A stretch of 64,000 nucleotides of DNA from positions 21,374 through 85,373 of the forward strand of contig JAGYME010000002.1 of NCBI GenBank assembly GCA_018400715.1, given 5' to 3'. Below the pieces are notes generated by a model that was not told the origin of the DNA, made no database searches, and was given only the letters and a program-made list of their open reading frames with translations. This document shows, piece by piece, positions 2,370 to 60,012 of the stretch. The stretch's first letter is position 1. Each line of letters starts with the position of its first letter. Both the position numbers and the translations under genes were made by a program. This DNA comes from Candidatus Bipolaricaulota bacterium (lineage in GTDB: Bacteria > Bipolaricaulota > Bipolaricaulia > M55B111).

Positions 2370-5300
2370 ATGTTGTCTAGCGACAATAGCATGCTGAGCG
2401 GCGACGATATAGAAGAAGTAAAATTATTGTTTGCTTCCCCCGAGGAGATAAGAGGGTGGTCTCATGGCGAGGTTACCGAGTCGGAGACGATTAATTATCG
2501 TACACACAAGCCCGAAAAGGGAGGTCTCTATGCCGAGGAGATTTTCGGCCCCGAGGAGGATTATAAGTGCGCCTGTGGAAAGTACGAAGGGAAGAAGTAC
2601 GAGGGGATTACCTGCGAAAAGTGTGGCGTGCTGGTGACGGATTCTTCCGTCAGGCGGAAGAACATGGGGCATATCGAGTTGGCGAGTCCCGTAATACATT
2701 TCTGGTTTCTAAAGGGCATCTCCAGCCCGCTGAGTAAGCTCCTTGACGTCAAGAAGAAGACGCTGAGAAAGATCGCTTATTACGAGGCGGAGACGACGCT
2801 CGAGGATATCTACATAGTGACCTCTGCGGAGGACGATTCCGTCAGGGAAAACGAGATGCTCTACAGTTCGGAACTCGACATCCTTGAGCCCGTTATCGAT
2901 TTCGAGACCGAGGACGGAATAATTATCAACGACGCTCCACCCGTTGAAGCGGAGGAAGCGGGGGTCGTATCGATCGAACATAAGAAACTTCAGAACGGCG
3001 AAGGCGTAAAGCTCCTCTCCGTGGGTGACGTGGAATATCCCGTCGCCGAGGACGTCGTTCTCGAGGTCACGGAGGGTGACGAGATAGACGAAGGTGACCT
3101 TATCGCCGAGTCGCCGGTGGGCGAGATCTGCACGGAGACCTTCTACGAGATGCTCTCTTCTCGGTACGAGGAAGTCGAAGGTGAGGTCGCCCAGGAAGAG
3201 GTCGACAACTTGGCTTTTCTGGTTACCAAAGTTAACGACGATGACGTTCCTCTCGAGGTCGGACAAAAGATCGCCCAGCTCGAGAAGGAAGCTTACGAAC
3301 GCCTTTACCCGACGGGTTTCTCTGCCTACACTGGGGCCCAGGGAATCAAGGGTCTACTGGAAAACATCGACCTGGACCAGCTGAGCAACAAGCTGAATAG
3401 TCAGCTGGACCGGGAGACGTCAATTACGGCCAGGAACAAGTTGTCCAAGCGCCTCAGCGTGGTTGAAAAACTCAAGGACTCAGGCAATAAACCGAGTTAC
3501 ATCGCGCTTGAAGCCATTCCAGTGCTGCCACCGGACCTCCGGCCCATAGTGCACCTGGAAGGGGGAAAGTTCGCAACTACCGACCTCAACGACCTGTATC
3601 GCCGTATAATAAACAGGAACAACAGGTTGAAGAGACTGGAGGACATGGGCGCTCCCGAGGTAATCCTCCGGAACGAGAGGAGGATGTTACAGGAGTCCGT
3701 TGATGCCCTCATCCATAACGAGAAGAAGAATACACCCATCAGGGGAAAGGACGACAGGCCGCTCAAGTCGTTATCCGATAGGATATCTGGTAAACACGGA
3801 CGGTTACGGCGCAACCTGCTGGGGAGGCGTGTTGACTACTCCGGACGGGCAGTCATAGTCGTGGACCCCAAGTTGAAGGTCTGGGAATGTGGCGTCCCCA
3901 AGAAGATGGCCCTGGAACTATTCAAGCCCTTCGTAACCCGCTACCTGGATGACACCACTTACTCTGATTACAACGAGATAAAGAACAAGGCGCTGGCAGG
4001 GGAACTACCCGACGTGCTCGATTACCTCGAGGAACTGCTAGAGGAAAGGCCGGTGCTGCTAAACCGCGCCCCCACCCTGCACAGGCTGGGAATAGAAGCC
4101 TTCGAGCCGAAGTTGGTCGATGGAAACGCCATTCACATCCACCCTCAAGTCTGCCCGCCTTACAACGCCGACTTTGACGGTGACCAGATGGCGATCCACC
4201 TCCCGCTTACCCGGGAGGCAGTACAGGAGTCGCGGGAGTTGATGCTATCTTCCCGTAACCTCCTCTCCCCGGCGGACGGTGGACCGCTGACGAAGCCGAC
4301 CCAGGACCAGATTTACGCCTTCTATTACCTCACCCAGGTCGATGAAGACGGCAAGGGCAAGGGAAAGTACTTCCGGAGCATCAGGGAGGCAGAGCGGGCT
4401 CACGAAAACGACGTCATCTCGCTCCATGCGCCCGTTAAGATCAGGATAGATGGAGAGGTAGTTGATACCACCCTTGGCAGGGCAAAGTTCAACGCCCTGT
4501 TCCCCGCGGACTTACGTGATTATGACAAGCAGTTTGAATCTTCAGACGTGTCGGAGATACTGATGGACGTCTTCGAGGAGTACGACAACGACAGGGTCGT
4601 CGAACTGCTCGACGAACTCAAGGAGCTTGGTTTTTCAGAGGCGACCGAATCCGCGCTGACTATCTCCACTAAAGATTGCCTGACCCCTGCTGAGAAATCG
4701 CACATCCTGGACCAGGCAAACCAGAGGGTTAGGAACATTACGGAGATGTTCGAGCAGGGACTGGCCTCGGAAGAAGAGAGGTCGTCATCGGTGGTGGATA
4801 TCTGGCACGAGACCGTAGACGAGATCGAGAACGCCACCATGAAGAACTTCTCGGACAACAAATTCAACCCCCTGCAGATGATGGTAGGGTCCGGAGCTAG
4901 AGGAAGCGCTGACCAGGTCAAACAGCTGGCCGGGATGAGGGGACTGATGGCCGATCCGTCAGGTGACGTCATCGAGATGCCAGTCAGGTCTAACTTTAGG
5001 GAAGGCCTGGACATGATGGAGTACTTCATATCCACCCACGGTGGTAGAAAAGGTACCGCGGATACCGCGTTGAAGACGGCGGACTCCGGCTATCTGACCC
5101 GGCGGCTGGTTGAAGCCGTGTCAAACATCGTCGTCCGCGAGGAGGACTGTGGGACGAACCGCGGGATAGAGATTGCCCCGTTGAGGTACGAGGGCGGCGA
5201 GATGATGGAAAGCATCGAGACTAGAATATATGGAAAGACTCTCGCCGAGCCGGTGATCGACCCCGAGGACGATAGAGTAATGGCCGAGAGGGGTGAACTC

Positions 5301-7349
5301 ATCGGCGATGACCTTGCCCGAGAGATCGGCGAGAAGAGCGTGGAGGTAGAGTCGGAAAGCTCTGACTTCCTGGACAAGGTAATTGGCACCTGTAGCGTCG
5401 ATGACGTGAGTGACCCCGAATCCGGCCGGGTAATCGTCCGGGCGGACGAAGTTATCGACCCACCCGAAGCGGAAGCATTGCAGGAGAGCGGAGTAGAAAA
5501 GATCGTCATCAGGCCAAGGATCGTCGTCAGATCCCCGCTAACCTGTGAGACGGAGAAGGGTGTATGCCAGGCCTGTTACGGGATGGATATGTCCACGCAC
5601 AAACGGATAAAGAAGGGCGTAGCGGCAGGAATAATCGCGGCGCAGTCGATTGGTGAGCCCGGGACACAGCTTACGATGAGGACCTTCCACTCCGGTGGTG
5701 TGGCCGGGGAAGATATTACCCAGGGTCTGCCCCGGGCGGAAGAGCTGTTTGAGGCGAGGAAGACTACGAAGAGCGCCCAGGCGACGATTACCGACATCGA
5801 GGGCCACGTAGTCGATATCACCGATACGGAACAGGGAAAAAGGGTAGAGATAGAGGGTGACGAACAGGAACTGACCGTGCCCGAGCCTCTATGTTTGGTC
5901 GGACCGGGCGACGAGTTGCCTCTGGGTGACGTAGTGGACAACACTAGTCCACACGCCGGGACGATCAGGATAGTTGAGGAGGAACATCAACAGGTTATGT
6001 ATCTGTTGATGAGCAGGTCAGACCGTTATTACGAGTTGCCGGAGGGAGTCGAACCAGTTGTCGAATCCGGTGACGCCGTGGCGAAGGGCGACAAACTCAC
6101 AGAGAGGTTTAAGTTGGAACAGGTACCCGCCAAGGAATCGGGGTCCGTGGACTGCGTCGATGAGGATGCCCGGTTGATTACTCTGGTAGACGAGGACGGC
6201 AAGTTCGTTGACCATCTGTTTCCGCCCATGGCTAAACCTCTGGTGGAAGAAGGTGAAGGCGTGGAAGAAGGTGAAGGCCTGATTGACGTGAAGGACCCGA
6301 TTCAGCTGAAGGCTGATAAGTCCGGGATCGTGGTCAGGGCACCTGAAAGGTTGATCCTATTTAACCCCGAGGAGGGTCTGAAGCGGATACCGTTGACGGA
6401 GTCAATGGTCCCCGCGGTCGTCGACGGAGAGGAGGTAAAGAAGGGCAAGACCCTGTTCAATCTCGATAGACCAGTAGATAGGGACCTGACCGTAGAGGAG
6501 GTCGAACCCGCTGGTGACGACTTGGTCAGGGTCCTTTACAGGTTCAAGGAACAGGTTACCCTTAAACACTCACCGATAGTTGGCCTGGGTGACAAGGTGA
6601 CCCCGGGACAGCAGTTATCCAAGGGAGTCATCCCGCCGCATAACCTGCTGGACAAGGCCGGTGTAGAGCGGACGTTTGATTATCTACTTACGGAAATTCA
6701 GAAGGTCTACAAGAGCCAGGGAGTCGACATTAACGATACTCATATCGAGACAATTGTCGCACAGATGTTAAACAACGTGATCGTGAGCAACCGTGGCGAC
6801 TCCGACTTGACGCAGAACGAACTGATTACGCTGGAAGAATTCCGCAACGTCGTCAAGGGCTTGAGAGAGAAGAACGAAGAGATAAGGGAAGAGCGAAAGA
6901 GGATAATCGGTAACGAAGTGGCTGACGACGTCTACAAGAGGGATCACCTCATAGCGCGAGAAGGGGAAACTATCACGGAAAGCCTGCTCGAACTGGCGCG
7001 GAGGACAGGAGTAAAGTCTCTTCCGATCATCGAGGACGGAGAACTCGTCGAAGTGAGGATATTGGATTACGTCCTGCCAGAAGGTGACCGGCAGTTACTC
7101 CGCATATCCAAGTCGGCCCTCAAGACCAAGGGCTGGTTGTCCGCGGCTTCGTTCCAAAGGACGACTTCGTCGCTGACAAACGCGGCATTGAGCGGACAGT
7201 CGGATAAGCTGCGCGGCCTGAAGCCTAATATAATAGTTGGAAAAAAGATAGCTGTTGGTAAGGGATTTGAAGATAGTCAGGAGAACGAGGAAGAAGACGG
7301 AGCCGAAGAAGCCGATTCAGAGCGAGACCCCTTGAATTCAACAGCTTGA
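2370..7349 (+). CDS. rpoC: DNA-directed RNA polymerase subunit beta-prime, 1659 aa with large lineage-specific insertions
   Basis: N-terminal Zn site CACGKY...[18 protein letters not shown], the catalytic [10 protein letters not shown] motif, trigger-loop [19 protein letters not shown]...[17 protein letters not shown], and C-terminal [11 protein letters not shown]. Confidence 0.97.
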
Positions 7350-29255: not shown

Positions 29256-30242
29256 ATGTCATTAATTGATCTGAAGGATTTAAAGACATATTTCTACACT
29301 GAGGATGGGGTCGTGCAGGCAGTTGATGGTGTGACGTTCAGCATCGACAGGCAGCAGACCATGGGTGTCGTTGGGGAAAGTGGCTCCGGAAAATCGGTTA
29401 CCGCTTTGTCCGTTATGGGTCTGGTGCCGATGCCACCGGGAAAGATAGTTGAAGGGGAGATCCTGTTCCATCGAGATGGCGGTACCGTTGATCTCACGGA
29501 GTTAAATCCAAAAGGAAAGGAGATGCGGTCGATCCGTGGCAACGAGATCGCGATGATATTCCAGGAACCGATGACCTCCCTTAATCCAGTATTCACGATT
29601 GGAAATCAGATCATGGAAGCGATTACCCTTCACCAGAACGTCAACAAGAAGAAGGCACGAAAGATAGCGATAAACATGCTGGAAGAGGTCGGCATCCCCC
29701 TGCCCGAACAGAGAGTAGATGAATATCCACATCAGCTTTCAGGTGGAATGAGACAGAGGGCGATGATAGCGATGGCCCTGTCCTGTAACCCTACGATGTT
29801 GATCGCTGATGAACCCACCACAGCACTTGACGTGACAATACAGGCCCAGATACTCGATTTAATGGAAGATCTACAACATGAATTCAACACTTCGATCATG
29901 TTCATCACTCACGATCTGGGCGTTATTGCCGAAATTACCAGCTTCGTCGTCGTCATGTACCTGGGCAAGATTGTGGAGAGCGGAGAAGTACACGAAATAT
30001 ATCACAATCCAACGATGCCGTACACGCAGGGACTTATGGAATCTATACCGTCCCTCGACGTGGACAAGGGGAGGTTAAAGCCGATTAAGGGGGTCGTTCC
30101 CGATCCCTACGATGTCCCTGAGGGATGTCCATTTAACAACCGCTGTCCACACGTCATGGATGTATGCAGGGAAAAGGATCCACCGTTGGTAGAGGTGGCT
30201 GACGGCCATAAATCAGCTTGTTGGTTGCACATTGATCATTAA
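29256..30242 (+). CDS. Oligopeptide/dipeptide ABC transporter ATP-binding protein (OppD/DppD type)
   Basis: Walker A GESGSGKS, signature LSGGMRQR, Walker B LIADEPTTALD, and a C-terminal oligopeptide-ABC domain with CPFNNRCP. Confidence 0.93.
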   Translation: MSLIDLKDLKTYFYTEDGVVQAVDGVTFSIDRQQTMGVVGESGSGKSVTALSVMGLVPMPPGKIVEGEILFHRDGGTVDLTELNPKGKEMRSIRGNEIAMIFQEPMTSLNPVFTIGNQIMEAITLHQNVNKKKARKIAINMLEEVGIPLPEQRVDEYPHQLSGGMRQRAMIAMALSCNPTMLIADEPTTALDVTIQAQILDLMEDLQHEFNTSIMFITHDLGVIAEITSFVVVMYLGKIVESGEVHEIYHNPTMPYTQGLMESIPSLDVDKGRLKPIKGVVPDPYDVPEGCPFNNRCPHVMDVCREKDPPLVEVADGHKSACWLHIDH

Positions 30243-30257
30243 GCGGGGTGAGCTTAA

Positions 30258-31313
30258 GTGGTAGAAATGGAAGAAGATAGACTACTTCAGGTTAGCGGAA
30301 TGAAGAAGTACTTTCCGGTGCGCCGCGGGGTGTTTCGGAGAGTAGTTGGATACGTGAAGGCCGTGGATGACGTGGACATGTTTATCCGTGAGGGAGAGAC
30401 CCTGGGACTGGTTGGAGAAAGTGGTTGTGGAAAGACGACCGCCGGCCGAACTATCCTCCGCCTTATCGAGCCGACAGCGGGTGAAATTTTCTTTCGGAGC
30501 GCCGAACTAGGTAACGGAAGCGGGGAGGTAGTTGATATTGCCAAGGCGGACAAGAGAGAGTTAAAACACCTCAGGCGCGACATGCAGATTATCTTTCAGG
30601 ACCCCTACTCTTCGTTGAACCCCAGGATGACGGTCGCCAGCATCGTTGGTGAACCCCTTGTCGTCCACGGCATCGGTAACAGAAAGGAAAGAAACGACAG
30701 GGTCAAGCAACTGCTGGAGACGGTGGGGCTCACGGAAAACCACATGAAGAGATATCCGCACGAGTTTAGCGGTGGTCAACGACAGAGAATTGGCGTGGCC
30801 CGAGCTCTTGCCCTGGACCCGGAACTGATCATAGCAGATGAGCCGGTTTCAGCACTTGACGTATCAATTCAGGCCCAGGTATTGAATCAGCTCGATGACC
30901 TCCAGGACGAATTCGGCCTGACCTACCTGTTCATCGCCCACGACCTTTCCGTAATCAAGCATATAAGTGACAGGGTAGCGGTCATGTACCTCGGACAGAT
31001 AGTCGAGCTGACCGACGTGGACAAGCTCTTCAACAGTCCTCTGCACCCCTATACCGAGGCGCTGATGTCGGCAGTCCCCGTTGCCAATCCCGATTTCGAG
31101 TCCGAGAGGATAATTCTCGAAGGGGACGTGCCTTCGCCGGTCGATCCCCCACCCGGCTGCTATTTCCACCCGAGGTGTCCGTACAGCGAGCCGATCTGTA
31201 GCGAAGAGGAGCCGGAACTCGTCGAGGTAGAGGACGACCACTACGTCCACTGTCACCTGGCTAAAGAACTCGACCTGAAGGGGTTATCGTCGGGAACAAG
31301 TGAGGACGAATAA
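30258..31313 (+). CDS. Oligopeptide/dipeptide ABC transporter ATP-binding protein (OppF/DppF type)
   Basis: [36 protein letters not shown]-terminal CYFHPRCP. Confidence 0.93.
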
Positions 31314-33999: not shown

Positions 34000-35076
34000 G
34001 TGGAAAACCTGCAAGAACTTAGAAATAAACTGGAAGAGATAAGCGATTACCTGGACGTGGAAAAGCTCCAGGAAGAAATAGAGGGCCTGAAGCGGGAGAT
34101 GAGTGCTCCCGGATTTTGGGACAACCCGGAAAGCGCCAAGGAGACCTCCAAGCTGGCGACGAGAAAGGAGGAGAAGGTCGAGAAGTTTCAGGGCTTAAGC
34201 GAGGAGGTTGAGGACCTGGAGGTGCTCCATGAATTGGCCGAGGAGGAGGAAAACGAAGCGGAGCTTGCCAGACTTGAAGATAAAGTTGAGAAAGTACGCG
34301 CGGAACTGGACGATTTCGAGCTGGAACTGTTCATGGACGGGAAGTTTGACGAGAACGACTGCTACCTGAGCATAAACGCGGGCGCGGGAGGCACCGATGC
34401 CCAGGACTGGGCGGAGATGCTTCTGAGGATGTACACCAGGTGGTTGGAGAAGAAAGGTTTCGTCTACGACTCACTGGGGTTTAGCAAAGGGGAAGAAGCC
34501 GGTATAAAGAGCGTAACCCTGTCAGTTGAGGGCGACCGGGCCTATGGCTACCTTAAAGGGGAAGCAGGGGTCCACCGTCTGGTGAGGATATCCCCGTTCG
34601 ATTCCGCGGGGAGGAGGCATACGTCATTCGCTTCCATCAGCGTAACCCCCGAATTCGAGGAGGATACAGAGGTTGAGATAGATCAGAACGATCTACGAAT
34701 AGATACGTACCGCTCGAGCGGAGCTGGCGGTCAGCACGTAAACGTGACCGACTCAGCGGTAAGGATTACCCACGAACCGACGGGAATCGTCGCTACCTGT
34801 CAGAACGAGAGGAGTCAGCACAAGAACAGGGAGACGGCGATGAAGATACTGCGGTCCCGTCTCTACCAGTTAAAGCTCGAGAAGAGGGCGGAGAAGTTAG
34901 ACGAGATTCAGGGGGAGCTCAAGGACATTGAGTGGGGTAGTCAGATTCGCTCCTACGTACTCCATCCCTATCAGAAGATAAAGGACCATAGGACGGATGT
35001 CGAGGTCGGTAATACCGATGCCGTCCTCGACGGGGAGCTGGACCAGTTTATTCACGCGTACCTGAAGACGACGTAG
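34000..35076 (+). CDS. prfB: Peptide chain release factor 2 (contiguous ORF, no +1 frameshift site)
   Basis: SPF tripeptide (RISPFDS) and GGQ (SSGAGGQHVN). GTG start. The N-terminus aligns through the usual frameshift position without interruption. Confidence 0.95.
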   Translation: MENLQELRNKLEEISDYLDVEKLQEEIEGLKREMSAPGFWDNPESAKETSKLATRKEEKVEKFQGLSEEVEDLEVLHELAEEEENEAELARLEDKVEKVRAELDDFELELFMDGKFDENDCYLSINAGAGGTDAQDWAEMLLRMYTRWLEKKGFVYDSLGFSKGEEAGIKSVTLSVEGDRAYGYLKGEAGVHRLVRISPFDSAGRRHTSFASISVTPEFEEDTEVEIDQNDLRIDTYRSSGAGGQHVNVTDSAVRITHEPTGIVATCQNERSQHKNRETAMKILRSRLYQLKLEKRAEKLDEIQGELKDIEWGSQIRSYVLHPYQKIKDHRTDVEVGNTDAVLDGELDQFIHAYLKTT

Positions 35077-35546
35077 GTTAATGGGGTAGCGGGTTAAAGA
35101 GTTGACTAGTTGATTGGTTAATTGGTTAATTGGTAATGCGTAATGAGTAACGGGTAATGGGAGGTATCCGGTATCCGTTTCAGGATGTAGGATTTGGGGG
35201 TTAGGGGTTAGGATTCAGGATTCAGGATGTAGGATAAGGGTTGACCGGTGAGCGGGCGTTGGCGGGGTTAACGAAGTACCAGGTATCCGGTACCAGTTTT
35301 TCGGTGTGAGAGGTCGAGGTCTTTGGCGATAGCCACGGGTTCGCGGGTTAACTAGTTAATGGGTGAATTGGTTAATTGGGTAGCGGGTAAGGGGGGCAGG
35401 ATCTAGGATTTAGGGATTAGGATTTGGGTGAGCGGGAGATGAGTTAATGGGTTAATGCGAGCCGTGAAATTGTTTTGACGCGTGACGCTCGACACACGAC
35501 ACGTGACGCTGAAACGGCGAACGGATTTTGACTGCGGACTGAAAAC
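35077..35546 (+). repeat. C-depleted non-coding tract of degenerate 7-nt tandem repeats (TAAT-type, GGTATCC, AGGAT-type) with a two-fold higher-order repeat
   Basis: No ORF on either strand. There are heptamer runs GGTTAAT/GGTAATG and CAGGATG/TAGGATT, ten NGGAT motifs on the + strand in two clusters, and the block order repeats at 35341-35436. Confidence 0.8.
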
Positions 35547-35584
35547 TGAAAAAGAAAAAGGGGCCGCCGGTTAAGGCAGCCCCT
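35547..35584 (-). terminator. Rho-independent terminator of the peptide-ABC operon (possibly bidirectional)
   Basis: AGGGGCCGCC-ggttaa-GGCAGCCCCT hairpin (9 of 10 pairs), followed on the minus strand by TTTTTCTTTTTCAGTTTTC. Confidence 0.7.
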
Positions 35585-35616
35585 ATTGTTATCCTGCTCC
35601 CTAATTTAAGCTTACG

Positions 35617-37167
35617 CTATTCCTTCCAGATCATCGGAACGTGGATGTCCATGGTCTGGTCTACGTAGGCGTTCATGACGTTTTCCTGGGTAACTACGTA
35701 TGCCTGTGCCATGTTGGACCAGAGCGGTATCCACATTATGTCCTCTGTGCTGAGGATTTGTAGGGACTCGTACAGCGCGGACCGTTTTTCGATGTCGGGC
35801 GTGGCCTTTGCCGTGTCCATGATCTTTACGTACGCGTCGTAGTTCGGGTGGTGGTTGAAGAACGTACCGAGTCCTTCCGGCGACTCCGTCGTCCACGGAG
35901 CGATGAAGTTACTCGCTTCGAGGTAGTCAGGGTACCAGCCGAGGAAGAACATGCCGAAACCACCCTGGGACATCTGTTCGGTGTAAGCGCCCCACTCGAG
36001 TGACTTGACCGTTACGTCCATGTTTGACAGCGAGTTAAGGCTACCCTGGACAACAGCGGCTACGTCCGCTTCCGTTGTTCCGTAGTGCTTCGGTGAGAAC
36101 CACAGTACCGCTTCCAGCGGGTTGTCCGCGGTGTAACCGGCGCTTTCCAGCAGCGCTTCTGACTTGGCGACGTCCTGCTTGGGGAACGTCGGGAGGGAGC
36201 CAGCCCATCCTTCTGGTACCATCGTGTATATGGGCTTCCCAACTCCACTGAATACCTGGTCGACGATCTCTTCCCTGTTGACCGCGTAGCTTACCGCCTT
36301 ACGTACCCGCTCGTCGCTGAACTGCTCGTGAGTGACGTTGAACAGCAGGTAACGCACGCTGGGACTTACTGCCGCGTGCGACGTCTTCAGGGCCGATTCC
36401 TTTTCTAGCTGGACGAGGTCGACCGGGTTGAGCGTCCGGAACGCAATGTCGATATTTCCGGACTCAATGGCGCTTCTGAGCTGGGCGGACTGGGTGTACT
36501 TGAGTTCAATGACGTTCTTTGTCTTGGCGTTTTCGCCGTAGTAATCCTCGTATGCTTCGTAAACGACTGACTGGTCAGGCGTGAAGCTCTTCAGGGTGTA
36601 TGGACCAACGCCGGCGAACTCGCCCTTGGCAAATTTGTCAGCAGGAGTGCTCTTCGGACTAAAGATGAGAGCAGGTCCAATCTGACCGGTCATCCGCTTC
36701 AAGAAAGTAGCGTCGGGTGACTTGAGCGTGATCTTTACCGTGTATTCATCGAGTACCTCGATCGTGTCGATCATCTTGATCAGCCCGACCCCACCCTCGG
36801 GTCCGTCTAAGCGTAACGCGCGTTCCAGAGACCACTTTACCGCTTCCGCGTTTACCGGTTCTCCGTCCGTGAACGTGGCGTCCTCGACCAAGTGGAAGGT
36901 GTATACCTGCGCGTCGGGGCCGACCTCCCATTCCCTGGCCAGTGCGGGAGCTACTTCGTCGGTCTTCGGCTTGATTTTCAGCAGAGCATCACTGCACATC
37001 CGCAGGACGTGCCAGGAATAGTGGTCATAAGAGTTGGCGGGTGACAGCTGGGTTACTCGGTCCGTCGTCCCCATAACCAGGGTGTCTTCGTCGTTCTGTG
37101 CAAAACCTACTAAGGAGAGACCTAACAGCAACAATCCAATTAAAGCTAGAACGCTAACTTTTTTCAT
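35617..37167 (-). CDS. Peptide/nickel ABC transporter substrate-binding protein (family 5)
   Basis: 516 aa with an N-terminal signal peptide. Family-5 SBP features (YTFHLVEDATFTDGEPVNAEAVKWSLER), adjacent to the permease genes. Confidence 0.9.
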   Translation of the reverse strand: MKKVSVLALIGLLLLGLSLVGFAQNDEDTLVMGTTDRVTQLSPANSYDHYSWHVLRMCSDALLKIKPKTDEVAPALAREWEVGPDAQVYTFHLVEDATFTDGEPVNAEAVKWSLERALRLDGPEGGVGLIKMIDTIEVLDEYTVKITLKSPDATFLKRMTGQIGPALIFSPKSTPADKFAKGEFAGVGPYTLKSFTPDQSVVYEAYEDYYGENAKTKNVIELKYTQSAQLRSAIESGNIDIAFRTLNPVDLVQLEKESALKTSHAAVSPSVRYLLFNVTHEQFSDERVRKAVSYAVNREEIVDQVFSGVGKPIYTMVPEGWAGSLPTFPKQDVAKSEALLESAGYTADNPLEAVLWFSPKHYGTTEADVAAVVQGSLNSLSNMDVTVKSLEWGAYTEQMSQGGFGMFFLGWYPDYLEASNFIAPWTTESPEGLGTFFNHHPNYDAYVKIMDTAKATPDIEKRSALYESLQILSTEDIMWIPLWSNMAQAYVVTQENVMNAYVDQTMDIHVPMIWKE

Positions 37168-37277
37168 TTTTACCTCCAGTTTTTAGGTAAAAGCTTGGTT
37201 TCCTACTTTTACGTAGTAGAGACTTGCTTTTTAATTTCCGGGGTCGAACCACCTCCAGTTATATAATCCACTCTGAC

Positions 37278-38150
37278 TTACGCTTTCTTTCTTTTTCTCT
37301 TTGGGTTGAGTAGGTCACTTACTCCTTCCCCGATTAGTCCGAAGCCAAGCGAGAGGATAATTATCATGATCCCCGGGAACGTAACTAGCCACCAGAAACC
37401 ACTCTGCAGGAACTTTTGTCCGTTCTGGATGTCAAATCCCCAGTCCGGCGTCGGAGGTGGCAGTCCGTAACCGAGGTAGGAAAGAGAAGCCTCTGTTAGG
37501 ATCGCGTCAGCGATGTTAAAAGATGATACAGCCATAATTGCGTTGACGACGTTCGGAGCGATGTGTTTGAACAATATCCTGAATCCGCTTGCGCCCATGG
37601 CGTTTACCGCCTCGACAAAGGTCTCTTCTCTAATCGTCAATACTTCACTCCGCGTAACGCGGAAGTAAGTCGGGATGTAAACTATCGATATGGCAAATAT
37701 CATCGTGTCCACGCCTGGTTCAAGGACGGCGACCAATACGATCGCCAGGATTATCGAAGGAAACGAATAGAGGGCGTCCATAGTTACCGAGAGTAGCCGG
37801 TCGACTACGGACCCGACGTATCCGGATACCAAGCCCAGGATGGTCCCCACGCTCATCGATAGGGCAATTGAGCCGAAAGCAACGACAAGCGGAGCGCGAG
37901 CGCCGTTTAGCACCCTCGAGAAGACGTCCCTTCTGAGTTGGTCAGTCCCCATTGGGTGTGCAAGAGTCGGTGGGCTAAGTCGTGGGGCACTCCTGTAAGT
38001 AATCGGGTCATACGGGGCGATATAAGGTGCCAGTATTGAAACGATTATGAAAAGCAACACGACGACCAGCCCGACGGCGAGCAATTTCTCCCGCTTGAGT
38101 ATTGGTGAAAGCTTCGTTAAGCCGTCAAGTATCTTCTTTGTAAACAACAT
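37278..38150 (-). CDS. Peptide ABC transporter permease (OppC/DppC type)
   Basis: Six TMs. Binding-protein-dependent transport signature EAVNAMGASGFRILFKHIAPN. Confidence 0.9.
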   Translation of the reverse strand: MLFTKKILDGLTKLSPILKREKLLAVGLVVVLLFIIVSILAPYIAPYDPITYRSAPRLSPPTLAHPMGTDQLRRDVFSRVLNGARAPLVVAFGSIALSMSVGTILGLVSGYVGSVVDRLLSVTMDALYSFPSIILAIVLVAVLEPGVDTMIFAISIVYIPTYFRVTRSEVLTIREETFVEAVNAMGASGFRILFKHIAPNVVNAIMAVSSFNIADAILTEASLSYLGYGLPPPTPDWGFDIQNGQKFLQSGFWWLVTFPGIMIIILSLGFGLIGEGVSDLLNPKRKRKKA

Positions 38151-38157
38151 CTAGTCG

Positions 38158-39177
38158 TTAATACCTCACTCTTGGGTCAAGCTGTGCGTAGAGGACGTCA
38201 ACGATCAAATTTATGGCGGAGATGAAGATCGCGATGAAGATAATCGTTCCCTGGATTGCCGGGTAGTCACGGGCGTCGACACTTCGGATCAGGAATCGTG
38301 CGATCCCCGGCCAGGAATATACGGTCTCGGTCAGGACTGCTCCACCCATGAGAATGGCGAACTGTAATCCGAGCACGGTCACGATTGGAATCATCGCGTT
38401 CCTCAGGGCGTGTTTGAACACAACTATCCTTTCGGCCAATCCTTTGGCGCGGGCCGTTTTCACGTAGTCGAGGTCGATGATCTCCAGCATGTTTGCCCTG
38501 CTCATCCTTCCCAGCAACCCGGCCTGGATGATCCCTAAGGTTAAGGCCGGGAGCGTCAAATGTTTTAACGTCTCGATCAGCAAGTCAAGCCTGCCTTTGA
38601 TGATGGTGTCAATTACGTAAAACTTGGTTACTGGTTGAAACATCGCCATCGACAGTGCGCCCAACCTATTGCCTACGGGCAGCCAGCCCAGGTAAACGGC
38701 GAAGACTATTTGGAACATGAGACCCATCCAGAAGAGGGGGACGGCAAAGGCACCGATGTGAAAGATCCTCAATCCGTGATCAATAAGGGTGTCGCTCTTT
38801 ACCGCAGCCCACACTCCAGTACCGACACCCAAAATCAGGGCGATAAACATGCCCCAGAAGGCCAATTCCAGGGTTGCGGGAAACCGGGAAAATATTTCGT
38901 GGAGCACGGGCTTATCCGTTCGTAAGGATTTTCCAAAATCCCCCCTGAAGATTCCAGCCAAGTAGTCTATGTACTGTTCATGTATTGGCTTGTCGAACCC
39001 TAACTCAGCCCTCTTCCTCTCGATTAATTCCTTGCTGACGTTACGCCCGCCGAGCATCGCTTGGACGGGGTCTCCCGGAATGACGCGAAGGAGGATAAAG
39101 ACAATCGTAATGAGGACGAATAGCATAGGAATAGTAGTTGCCAGTCTCTTAACGATATAGGCACCGAGGTTGTTCAT
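38158..39177 (-). CDS. Peptide ABC transporter permease (OppB/DppB type)
   Basis: IVKRLATTIPMLFVLITIVFILLRVIPGDP N-terminus, and YVKTARAKGLAERIVVFKHALRNA EAA loop. Confidence 0.9.
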   Translation of the reverse strand: MNNLGAYIVKRLATTIPMLFVLITIVFILLRVIPGDPVQAMLGGRNVSKELIERKRAELGFDKPIHEQYIDYLAGIFRGDFGKSLRTDKPVLHEIFSRFPATLELAFWGMFIALILGVGTGVWAAVKSDTLIDHGLRIFHIGAFAVPLFWMGLMFQIVFAVYLGWLPVGNRLGALSMAMFQPVTKFYVIDTIIKGRLDLLIETLKHLTLPALTLGIIQAGLLGRMSRANMLEIIDLDYVKTARAKGLAERIVVFKHALRNAMIPIVTVLGLQFAILMGGAVLTETVYSWPGIARFLIRSVDARDYPAIQGTIIFIAIFISAINLIVDVLYAQLDPRVRY

Positions 39178-51798: not shown

Positions 51799-52079
51799 GG
51801 GGATGGGGAATTGGTTCTTGTGTAGTACCATGCAGCCTGCATCGAAATTGCTTGCCTGGCGTTACCTGGACAGTTAACTCTGATCAAGCTACCTCCTGAC
51901 ACCCACAGAGGTCTACTTACCGCTGCTCCCTTCCAGGCCTGACGGGATTTGTAGACTTGTGCCGCAGAAGACTCAACCGTCAACACCACTTATCCAGGTC
52001 CAGTCCCAAACAACCAACTCCTCAGCAGGCATGTCAGCTCCACTATAGCGGGTTGAGGAAATGGGGACCGCTAGCCCCC
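51799..52079 (-). ncRNA. ffs: Signal recognition particle RNA, long form (~280 nt; ends approximate)
   Basis: The minus strand reads GUCAGGCCUGGAAGGGAGCAGCGGUAAG, the conserved helix-8 motif with a GGAA tetraloop. The flanks are extensively complementary (GUCUAC/GUAGAC, CCUGGA../..UCCAGG, CAUGCCUGC/GCAGGCUGCAUG), forming a long helix 5. Confidence 0.72.
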
Positions 52080-52091
52080 GCCTAGCATGGC

Positions 52092-52179
52092 TGGCGGAGG
52101 GGGTGGGATTTGAACCCACGGAACCTCTCGGTTCACCGGTACTCCAAACCGGCGGTTTTGGCCGCTCGCCCACCCCTCC
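52092..52179 (-). tRNA. tRNA-Ser (anticodon GGA), type II with long variable arm, CCA encoded
   Basis: Minus strand: GGAGGGG acceptor, anticodon arm CCGGU-UUGGAGU-ACCGG, variable hairpin GAACC-GAGA-GGUUC, T arm GUGGG-UUCAAAU-CCCAC, discriminator G and CCA. D-stem pairing is weak. Confidence 0.85.
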
Positions 52180-59768: not shown

Positions 59769-59828
59769 TGATACCTCCTCACTTGTTATTGTTATTGGTT
59801 GTTGAATTTTCTCGCATAACTCTAACAA

Positions 59829-59855
59829 TTAGCACTCTTGGATAGTGACTGCTAA
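59829..59855 (-). promoter_or_regulatory. CIRCE operator (HrcA binding site) of the groESL operon
   Basis: TTAGCACTC-N9-GACTGCTAA, one mismatch from the consensus inverted repeat TTAGCACTC-N9-GAGTGCTAA. It lies between the predicted promoter and groES. Confidence 0.8.
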
Positions 59856-59864
59856 ATCAACAAA

Positions 59865-59893
59865 AGTTTAACCAATCAACCCCCACCAGTCAA
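59865..59893 (-). promoter_or_regulatory. Putative sigma-70-type groESL promoter
   Basis: Minus strand TTGACT-17 nt-TAAACT, immediately upstream of CIRCE. Confidence 0.5.
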
Positions 59894-60012
59894 CCCCCAT
59901 TCAACGATTATTTAACTGAGATTTATGGTGACGGGAAACTTTTATACCTAGCGGGATAGAGTGCCCCGCCAGTGCCTTTGATTTTGGTTGTGATTGTGAT
60001 ATCATTCTAAGT

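What the first reader, a model, noticed from the sequence alone, without database searches (positions are those of the whole stretch)
35077..35546. 470-nt C-depleted heptamer-repeat tract with ten NGGAT motifs downstream of prfB: candidate GGA-motif sponge RNA or novel simple-sequence element
Seen in sequence:
- Two convergent genes are separated by about 540 nt with no ORF.
- The + strand is nearly devoid of C over 35077-35260 and 35340-35450.
- It is built from 7-nt units: GGTTAAT, GGTAATG and GTAACGG (about 14 TAAT/TAAC units), GGTATCC twice, then CAGGATG TAGGATT TGGGGGT TAGGGGT TAGGATT CAGGATT CAGGATG TAGGATA (35181-35237).
- The same block order (TAAT array, AGGAT array, GGTGAGCGGG) recurs at 35341-35436, which is a higher-order duplication.
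- NGGAT occurs 10 times (6+4), always on the + strand. About 0.4 AGGAT would be expected by chance in this length.
- 35470-35546 carries further short direct repeats (GTGACGCT x2, CGACAC x2, ACTGAAAA x2).

Established knowledge: CsrA/RsmA proteins bind A(N)GGA, with a SELEX optimum RUACARGGAUGU. Their sponge RNAs (CsrB/C, RsmX/Y/Z) are recognised by many CAGGAUG-like repeats and are known mainly from Gammaproteobacteria. Heptamer STRR arrays are known in heterocystous cyanobacteria.

Inference: if transcribed from the + strand, as a prfB 3' UTR or as an independent sRNA ending at the 35559-35584 hairpin, the tract would display a dense single-stranded GGA/SD-like array able to titrate an RNA-binding protein or ribosomes. 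Alternatively it is a slippage-generated DNA repeat or a protein-binding array.
Basis: partly seen in the sequence, partly recalled or inferred. Interest (0 to 1): 0.7.

Follow-up and report, generated by a model that had tools for sequence, protein, structure and literature searches.

The report
Lineage-specific compound short-repeat spacer after prfB
The 470-base C-poor tract of 7- and 8-base repeats downstream of prfB is real, but it is found in only one uncultured Bipolaricaulota lineage and sits in a fast-changing spacer between two gene ends, so it is most likely slippage-made simple-sequence DNA and not a conserved regulatory RNA.

Summary
A 540-nt ORF-free spacer separates convergent prfB (34000-35076, +) and an Opp/Nik-type binding-protein gene (35617-37167, -). 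It carries 7- and 8-nt tandem arrays, a diverged higher-order duplication, 6-8% C inside the arrays, and nine AGGAT, all on the + strand (0.85 expected).

The sponge-RNA reading is not supported:
- No Rfam family matches.
- No + strand promoter is predicted.
- The 35559-35584 hairpin is the minus-strand terminator of the binding-protein gene.
- Predicted folding pairs most GGA motifs and does not place them in hairpin loops.
- The tract is absent from every available relative.

The window comes from an uncultured Bipolaricaulota (Acetothermia) genome. Its sister species (prfB 87% identical, same gene order) has an unrelated, non-repetitive 307-398-nt spacer. Another relative has only 85 nt, and a further one shows strain heterogeneity there. 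Only the terminator is conserved.

Adjacent repeat units differ by one or two changes, the usual mark of stepwise slippage. C depletion is confined to the arrays.

Best explanation (about 0.6): a lineage-specific compound microsatellite in an unconstrained spacer, probably carried passively on the prfB 3' UTR. A decoy RNA, a Rho loading site and an assembly artefact remain unexcluded minority readings. Interest is low.

The parts
34000..35076 (+). prfB (release factor 2), a single ORF without the programmed frameshift. Its stop codon TAG abuts the tract.
   Evidence: TIGR00020 528 bits; translation
35101..35160 (+). Array A1. Units in register: GTTGACTA, GTTGATTG, GTTAATTG, GTTAATTG, GTAATGC, GTAATGA, GTAACGG, GTAATGG. 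The period shifts from 8 to 7, and neighbouring units differ by 0-2 changes.
   Evidence: Read from the sequence; TRF periods 8 and 7; autocorrelation peaks at lags 7 and 8
35163..35177 (+). GGTATCC, 2.1 copies
   Evidence: TRF, 100% match
35179..35240 (+). Array C1. Heptamers TTCAGGA, TGTAGGA, TTTGGGG, GTTAGGG, GTTAGGA, TTCAGGA, TTCAGGA, TGTAGGA. Six AGGAT.
   Evidence: (D3)
35247..35261 (+). GGTGAGCGGG block closing copy 1
   Evidence: the repeat finder D5, 87% to 35427-35441
35262..35336 (+). Non-array linker between the two copies, with normal C content (19%). It contains a weak + strand hairpin at 35276-35293 followed by TTTTT.
   Evidence: Composition; terminator-like site; -8.5 kcal/mol, z = -1.4
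35337..35457 (+). Copy 2 of the higher-order unit. It has a period-8 TAAT array (35346-35379), an AGGAT/GGGAT heptamer array (35395-35428, three AGGAT plus one GGGAT), GGTGAGCGGG (35427-35441), and two more TTAATG-type units (35439-35457).
   Evidence: the repeat finder D1-D5; TRF
35458..35558 (+). Spacer segment on the binding-protein-gene side, with ordinary composition and short direct repeats (GACRCGTGACGCT x2, ACTGAAA x2). It aligns only weakly and partly to the sister species; clear alignment starts at the A-tract just before the terminator.
   Evidence: (D6)
35559..35584 (-). Intrinsic terminator of the binding-protein gene or operon. It may act in both directions, because an A-tract lies on its other side.
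   Evidence: Called on the - strand; -22.2 kcal/mol with a U-run on -, -19 kcal/mol with UAUUGUUAU on +; position conserved in the sister species with changed stem bases
35617..37167 (-). Opp/Nik-type ABC transporter substrate-binding protein, convergent with prfB
   Evidence: NCBIfam nikA/gsiB/dppA-like hits below the equivalog cut-offs; PF00496 in homologues

Best explanation
The tract is a lineage-specific compound microsatellite/minisatellite. It arose in situ in the spacer between the 3' ends of prfB and an Opp/Nik-type substrate-binding-protein gene, a spacer that is unconstrained and turns over rapidly.

Inferred history:
- A few C-free or C-poor seed units (GTTAATTG, GTAATGN, GGTATCC, GGGGTTA, AGGATTC/AGGATGT) were amplified by replication slippage.
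- The units then mutated and were re-amplified.
- One roughly 180-260-nt block was duplicated by unequal exchange and has since diverged.

On this model both the C depletion and the one-strand AGGAT enrichment are inherited from the seed units and are not selected.

No convincing + strand terminator follows prfB before the shared hairpin at 35559-35584. The tract is therefore probably carried passively on a long prfB 3' UTR.

Shown: the anatomy, the absence from relatives and the variability of the spacer. Inferred: the slippage mechanism, the transcription and the lack of function.
For: 1. Unit gradient. Adjacent units differ by 0-2 changes, with perfect neighbouring duplicates: GTTAATTG x2, GGTATCC x2, GGGGTTA x2, AGGATTC x2.
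2. C depletion is confined to the arrays (6-8% C). The linker 35261-35339 and the segment 35451-35546 have 19-23% C.
3. Absence from relatives.
   - The sister species (prfB 87%, binding protein 92%) has the same gene order. Its spacer is 307-398 nt, non-repetitive, and conserved across three samples.
   - Its similarity to the tract is at shuffle level: score 17-18 against 17.8 +/- 2.1.
   - L331-L333 (prfB 77%) have the same convergent arrangement with only 85 nt, essentially one terminator hairpin.
   - L329 and L330 diverge from each other about 150 nt beyond the binding-protein gene stop.
   - L326-L328 have the oppB-oppC-SBP cassette in the opposite orientation.
4. No copies elsewhere. 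There is no other copy in the 64-kb window. AGGAT-heptamer and GGTTAAT-array patterns find nothing in the 84 loci held at that point (about 1.3 Mb). There is no match in plasmids or phages. TRF finds no arrays in the 21 kb of the sister locus.
5. Its position between two 3' ends rules out a promoter or coding phase-variation role.
6. No ORF, no Rfam match and no + strand promoter.
7. Heptamer AGGATNN arrays turn up sporadically in many unrelated metagenomic contigs. None has this composite layout, so they are generic slippage products and not a family.
Against: - Non-triplet arrays longer than 100 nt are rare in bacteria. I found about 3 clusters in 1.5 Mb of comparison loci, so neutrality cannot be assumed.
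- All the arrays keep the same strand asymmetry, and the + strand is the prfB sense strand. Selection at the RNA level could also produce this.
- CAGGATG/YAGGATK resembles the CsrA-binding consensus.
- No population or expression data were available.
- Absence of conservation does not exclude a young, lineage-specific function.
- Only one genome of this species exists in the databases (singleton clusters), so length polymorphism was not observed directly.
Confidence: 0.6

Rival explanations
1. Decoy (sponge) RNA. The tract is transcribed on the + strand, as the prfB 3' UTR or as a processed fragment of it. Its 9-10 YAGGAUK motifs titrate a GGA-binding protein of the CsrA/RsmA type, or ribosomes through the SD-like AGGA core.
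For: - Nine AGGAT lie on one strand against 0.85 expected.
- No strong + strand terminator separates prfB from the tract, so transcription is plausible.
- About 30% of bacterial genomes across most phyla encode CsrA (PMC13443453).
Against: - The tract is absent from every relative examined, including a fully syntenic sister species.
- No Rfam CsrB/CsrC/Rsm hit exists except 8.1 bits on the terminator hairpin.
- No + strand promoter is predicted.
- In the predicted fold only one base of one motif lies in a hairpin loop. Unpaired probabilities of the GGA cores are 0.03-0.63 against a mean of 0.35 for the whole RNA.
- No csrA was found in the window or in 134 kb of related loci, though this test has almost no power.
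- The one closed Acetothermia genome described lacks flagellar genes, the usual partners of CsrA-FliW outside Gammaproteobacteria (PMC6092417). That genome is a distant relative.
Confidence: 0.07
2. Rho loading pad or insulator. Read on the minus strand, the tract gives a long C-rich, G-poor, largely unstructured RNA. That is the composition of a Rho utilisation (rut) site. It would stop any transcription that escapes the binding-protein gene terminator before it runs antisense into prfB.
For: - The two most extreme G-minus-C 80-nt windows of the whole 64 kb are in the tract (G 37/C 4 and G 38/C 7), and a third is in the top ten.
- The minus-strand RNA is predicted to be mostly unpaired across the arrays.
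- The tract lies directly downstream, on the - strand, of the binding-protein gene.
Against: - A strong intrinsic terminator already precedes it on the minus strand.
- Relatives manage with 85 nt or with non-C-rich spacers.
- Comparable skew values occur at a few other, mostly coding, places in the window (46054, 62532).
- The repeat architecture is not required for a rut site.
- The presence of rho in this genome was not testable.
Confidence: 0.12
3. Array of DNA binding sites, for example GTTAAT or GGTATCC repeats bound by a nucleoid-associated or helix-turn-helix protein. It would structure or insulate the convergent junction.
For: Dense direct repeats of short A+T-containing words. GGTATCCGGTA(T/C)C occurs at 35163 and again at 35282 (D2).
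Against: - The 7-8 bp spacing does not match the helical repeat.
- There are no inverted-repeat operators, and the only inverted pair is an 18-nt, 83% match of borderline significance.
- The tract is not conserved in relatives.
- No regulated promoter is nearby, because both flanking genes end here.
Confidence: 0.05
4. Assembly artefact. The tract is a mis-assembled or collapsed low-complexity join in a metagenome-assembled genome.
For: - The source is a MAG contig of 92 kb, known from one record only.
- Relatives' contigs often break in this spacer (L001, L082, L325, L329, L330).
Against: - The flanking genes keep the order and orientation seen in the sister species, and the terminator is in place.
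- The arrays are imperfect and diverged, which is unlike collapsed or chimeric reads.
- The higher-order duplication has 70-87% identity, which implies evolutionary divergence.
Confidence: 0.05

Closest known systems
Bacterial simple-sequence repeats (compound microsatellites and minisatellites made by replication slippage)
   Same: Short units of 7-8 nt. Perfect neighbouring duplicates. A stepwise gradient of unit variants. A higher-order duplication. Restriction to one lineage. A non-coding location.
   Different: It is unusually long and composite for a bacterial intergenic region: about 390 nt and at least five unit types. It is not placed where repeat-number changes could switch a gene, because it lies between two 3' ends.
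CsrB/CsrC/RsmX/Y/Z sponge RNAs (Rfam clan CL00106)
   Same: Many GGA motifs on one strand, including CAGGATG. Non-coding. A terminator hairpin lies nearby.
   Different: No model match. Motifs are not predicted in hairpin loops. No own promoter. The hairpin belongs to the other strand. Not conserved in the sister species. The host phylum has no reported Csr system.
STRR heptamer arrays of heterocystous cyanobacteria
   Same: Tandem heptamers with G-rich/C-rich strand asymmetry in intergenic DNA.
   Different: Different phylum. Different unit sequences. STRR are dispersed in many copies per genome, whereas here only one locus is seen in 64 kb.
Rho utilisation (rut) regions
   Same: The minus-strand transcript would be C-rich, G-poor and unstructured over more than 80 nt, downstream of a gene.
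   Different: It follows a strong intrinsic terminator. The repetitive build is not a rut feature. Relatives lack it.
Heptamer-array hairpins seen in unrelated metagenomic and genomic contigs (L264, L308, L213, L078)
   Same: AGGATTC-type or other heptamer arrays directly downstream of genes.
   Different: Those arrays are followed by their own inverted copy and would form long hairpins. The window tract has no inverted arm.

Membership tests
CsrB/Rsm sponge RNA | Many GGA motifs on the transcribed strand | tested here: met
   14 GGA and 9 AGGAT on +, none of the AGGAT on -
CsrB/Rsm sponge RNA | GGA motifs presented in hairpin loops or short single-stranded linkers between hairpins | tested here: not met
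   In the MFE fold, 8 of the 9 GGA cores are fully or mostly paired and 1 is unpaired in an internal/multi-loop. One base of one motif lies in a hairpin loop. Unpaired probability is 0.03-0.63. This is a prediction only.
CsrB/Rsm sponge RNA | Match to a curated family model | tested here: not met
   Rfam at gathering threshold: nothing. At E<=10: CsrB 8.1 bits against 71 required, covering only the terminator hairpin.
CsrB/Rsm sponge RNA | Own promoter and own Rho-independent terminator | tested here: inconclusive
   No sigma-70-like + strand promoter in 34800-35800. The hairpin at 35559-35584 is called on the - strand, and the + strand tail is UAUUGUUAU. The scan is a simple consensus search, and the organism's promoters are uncharacterised.
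CsrB/Rsm sponge RNA | Cognate CsrA/RsmA protein encoded in the genome | not testable with these tools
   Only 64 kb of the genome is available. No literature on CsrA in Bipolaricaulota.
CsrB/Rsm sponge RNA | Conservation of the element in related species | tested here: not met
   Absent from the syntenic sister species and from three further relatives
Cyanobacterial STRR | Tandem heptamers | tested here: met
   Period 7 and 14 arrays; lag-7 autocorrelation 0.6-0.7
Cyanobacterial STRR | Host is a heterocystous cyanobacterium, with STRR consensus units dispersed in many copies | tested here: not met
   The closest proteins are all from Bipolaricaulota/Acetothermia MAGs. No second locus in the window. 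The STRR consensus units are recalled from memory and do not match.
Contingency (phase-variation) repeat locus | Repeat lies in a coding region or between promoter elements, so that copy number switches expression | tested here: not met
   The tract lies between two stop codons of convergent genes
Rho-dependent terminator (rut site) | At least 70-80 nt of C-rich, G-poor, unstructured RNA downstream of a transcription unit | tested here: met
   For the minus-strand RNA, the top two 80-nt G-minus-C windows of the 64 kb are here. The fold is mostly unpaired.
Rho-dependent terminator (rut site) | Rho present, and Rho-dependent 3' ends at the site | not testable with these tools
   No rho gene was seen among the window proteins scanned. 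The rest of the genome is unavailable, and there are no transcript data.

The most novel reading that the evidence does not exclude
The tract is a young, lineage-specific regulatory RNA. It would be a prfB 3'-UTR-borne, C-free, unstructured decoy whose roughly ten YAGGAUK motifs sequester a GGA-binding protein (CsrA-like) or ribosomes. It would have been built de novo by repeat expansion. That would make it the first such sponge in a deep-branching uncultured phylum and a worked example of how sponge RNAs are born from microsatellites.
Probability: 0.06. Interest if true: 0.7.

Novelty: new member of a known kind. Interest (0 to 1): 0.2.

Why it matters
If the majority reading is right, the tract matters little. 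It is an unusually large compound microsatellite marking a hypervariable junction in an uncultured Bipolaricaulota genome. It could serve as a strain marker, and it warns that GGA-motif counting alone over-calls sponge RNAs.

If the minority reading were right, it would show a protein-titrating RNA arising de novo by repeat expansion outside the Proteobacteria. That would bear on how CsrB-like RNAs originate.

Tried and rejected
1. Retrieving the rest of the source genome. Exact-protein look-ups for three window proteins found nothing on record. Genome-wide searches for csrA, rho or further arrays were therefore impossible.
2. Similarity between the tract and the groES promoter region. The shared 13-mer GTTGATTGGTTAA at about 59.88 kb looked interesting. 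The local alignment score of 27 equals the best shuffle and is below several unrelated window segments, so I dropped it.
3. Homology between the tract and the sister species' spacer. MAFFT suggested some, but local alignment is at shuffle level.
4. Inversion-site hypothesis. No inverted partner of the tract exists at the other end of the oppBCA cassette.
5. Collection scans with heptamer patterns. The returns were eukaryote-like TTTAGGG-type arrays on contigs with no coding density, short arrays inside ORFs, and array-plus-inverted-array hairpins. None had the composite layout.
6. A known RNA in the sister spacer: no Rfam hit.
7. Plasmid and phage collections: no match.
8. Literature on CsrA or flagella in Bipolaricaulota. 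Nothing on CsrA. One closed Acetothermia genome lacks flagellar genes. The NAR 2026 CsrA survey does not mention the phylum, and its supplements are not held.
9. Small-protein reading: no credible ORF.

Full report
**What is there**

prfB occupies 34000-35076 (+) (TIGR00020, 528 bits). It is a single ORF with no programmed frameshift. An Opp/Nik-type substrate-binding-protein gene occupies 35617-37167 (-). The two genes converge on a 540-nt spacer.

- The spacer has no ORF of 40 aa or more, and only four chance ORFs of 22-30 aa.
- TRF finds period 7, 8 and 14 arrays at 35109-35235, 35346-35379 and 35439-35457.
- The repeat finder shows that block 35083-35261 recurs in the same order at 35337-35441, at 70-87% identity.
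- C makes up 8% of 35077-35260 and 6% of 35340-35450, against 24% in the window. The ten lowest-C 150-nt windows of the 64 kb are all here.
- AGGAT occurs nine times on the + strand and never on the - strand. In 2000 dinucleotide-preserving shuffles of the tract the mean is 0.85 and the maximum 4.
- All five AGGATNNAGGAT matches in the window lie here, against 0.18 expected.

**Anatomy read in register**

- 35101-35160 reads GTTGACTA, GTTGATTG, GTTAATTG, GTTAATTG, GTAATGC, GTAATGA, GTAACGG, GTAATGG. Neighbours differ by 0-2 changes, and one base is lost where the period shifts from 8 to 7.
- Next comes GGTATCC x2.
- Then come TTCAGGA, TGTAGGA, TTTGGGG, GTTAGGG, GTTAGGA, TTCAGGA, TTCAGGA, TGTAGGA.
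- Perfect adjacent duplicates together with a gradient of variants are the expected footprint of stepwise slippage and re-amplification.
- C depletion is confined to the arrays. The linker 35261-35339 has 19% C and the segment 35451-35546 has 23% C. This fits inheritance from C-free seed units better than a compositional requirement on the whole spacer.

**Signals**

- The hairpin at 35559-35584 is called as a terminator on the minus strand. On that strand it has a perfect 10-bp stem, -22.2 kcal/mol, followed by UUUUUCUUUUU. On the + strand it is -19 kcal/mol and followed by UAUUGUUAU. It belongs to the binding-protein gene and is at best bidirectional.
- The only + strand terminator-like site is weak: 35276-35293 followed by T5, -8.5 kcal/mol, z = -1.4.
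- No sigma-70-like promoter is predicted on the + strand.
- By inference, the tract is most likely transcribed as a long prfB 3' UTR.
- Rfam gives nothing at gathering thresholds. At E<=10 the only hit is 8.1 bits to CsrB, covering just the terminator hairpin.
- In the predicted + strand fold, eight of the nine GGA cores are fully or mostly base-paired, six of them with all three bases paired. Only one base of one motif lies in a hairpin loop.
- The minus-strand RNA is largely unpaired.

**Where the window comes from, and what relatives have**

The best prfB and binding-protein homologues are all from Candidatus Bipolaricaulota/Acetothermia MAGs. The window's own proteins form singleton clusters from one 92-kb NCBI contig.

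| Relative (loci) | Identity to the window | State of the prfB / binding-protein-gene spacer |
|---|---|---|
| Sister species (L081, L083, L084) | prfB 87%, binding protein 92% | Identical gene order (FxsA, ComEC, prfB, SBP, permeases). The spacer is 398, 398 or 307 nt, neither repetitive nor C-poor. It is nearly identical among the three samples apart from a 91-nt indel. |
| L331-L333 | prfB 77% | Same convergent arrangement with only 85 nt, essentially one hairpin |
| L329, L330 | binding protein 86% | Contigs end about 200 nt past the binding-protein gene stop and diverge from each other about 150 nt out, without arrays |
| L326-L328 | prfB 76% | The oppB-oppC-SBP cassette is in the opposite orientation |

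In the sister species only the terminator aligns clearly to the window. Local alignment of the tract against that spacer is at shuffle level. The spacer is thus a rearrangement-prone, hypervariable junction in which only the terminator is kept. The array tract is specific to the window's lineage.

**Is it a member of a dispersed family?**

- Within the window there is no second locus. The apparent similarity to the groES promoter region is not above background.
- AGGAT-heptamer and GGTTAAT-array patterns are absent from the 84 loci held at that point, about 1.3 Mb.
- Plasmid and phage collections have no match.
- Pattern scans of viral and metagenome collections saturated. They returned three kinds of unrelated hit:
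  - eukaryote-like TTTAGGG-type arrays on contigs with zero coding density;
  - short arrays inside ORFs;
  - prokaryotic arrays followed by their own inverted copy.
- None of these shares the composite layout.
- In 1.5 Mb of bacterial comparison loci, the window's main array run (35109-35235, the part TRF groups as one cluster) ranks ninth among tandem-repeat clusters. It is one of about three with a non-triplet period above 100 nt. It is unusual, but not unique in kind.

**Interpretation**

The best-supported explanation is a lineage-specific compound microsatellite generated by slippage and unequal exchange in an unconstrained spacer, carried passively on the prfB 3' UTR (confidence about 0.6).

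The sponge-RNA idea keeps one genuine point in its favour, the CAGGATG-like motif density. It fails on conservation, model match, predicted motif presentation, promoter and terminator assignment. Whether the genome encodes CsrA could not be tested. Nothing was found in 198 kb, there is no literature on the phylum, and one closed Acetothermia genome lacks flagellar genes (PMC6092417).

A Rho-loading role for the C-rich minus-strand RNA is compositionally plausible. The tract holds the top two G-minus-C windows of the 64 kb. Against it, a strong intrinsic terminator already precedes the tract, and relatives lack such a region.

A DNA-binding array and an assembly artefact are minor possibilities.

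**Verdict**

This is a new member of a known kind (bacterial simple-sequence DNA) and is of low interest. About 6% probability remains for a de novo decoy RNA, which would be interesting if true.

Noticed in passing
window 35617-39177, compared with L326 11256-14905: The oppB-oppC-SBP transporter cassette next to prfB is inverted in the window, its sister species and L331, relative to other Bipolaricaulota (L326-L328). oppD and oppF stay upstream on the + strand (29256-31313). The prfB/SBP spacer is therefore an inversion junction.
   Followed up: partly
L081 3043-3440; L084 1664-2061; L083 11093-11399: The sister species carries a different 307-398-nt non-coding spacer. It is almost identical across three samples apart from a clean 91-nt indel. 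It has no Rfam match and no obvious ORF. It could hold an unrecognised RNA or a small mobile insertion.
   Followed up: partly
L001, L082 and L325 (contig ends 116-279 nt after prfB); L329 and L330 (ends about 200 nt after the binding-protein gene): Several independent assemblies of relatives break inside this same spacer, and L329 and L330 diverge from each other there. This suggests strain-level heterogeneity at the junction.
   Followed up: partly
window 34000-35076: prfB is one uninterrupted ORF. The usual CUU-UGA frameshift site is replaced by in-frame Tyr-Leu-Asp, so RF2 autoregulation by frameshifting is absent in this lineage. The gene ends in UAG, a stop codon read by RF1.
   Followed up: no
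window 59778-60012: The divergent groES / NiFe-hydrogenase-like spacer has a CIRCE-like inverted repeat (TTAGCACTC-N9-GACTGCTAA, 59831-59857), a 14-nt tandem repeat (59871-59899), and a promoter-like TTGACT-17-TAAACT on the - strand.
   Followed up: partly
L264 5555-5800; L308 5199-5312; L213 1996-2144 and about 2995-3160; L078 5818-5982: Unrelated metagenomic and genomic contigs carry heptamer arrays immediately followed by the inverted copy of the same array, directly after or between genes. They would form long imperfect hairpins, possibly repeat-built terminators.
   Followed up: no
window 2370-7349 and 123-1917: The rpoC-like gene (1659 aa, long for a beta-prime subunit) is preceded by a UvrD-type helicase 3' part and a small zinc-ribbon ORF (about 1627-1917), not by rpoB. 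An 18-nt tandem repeat lies inside rpoC at 6243-6317.
   Followed up: no
window 51828-52179 (-): A large-type bacterial SRP RNA (170 bits) lies directly downstream of a tRNA gene on the minus strand.
   Followed up: no
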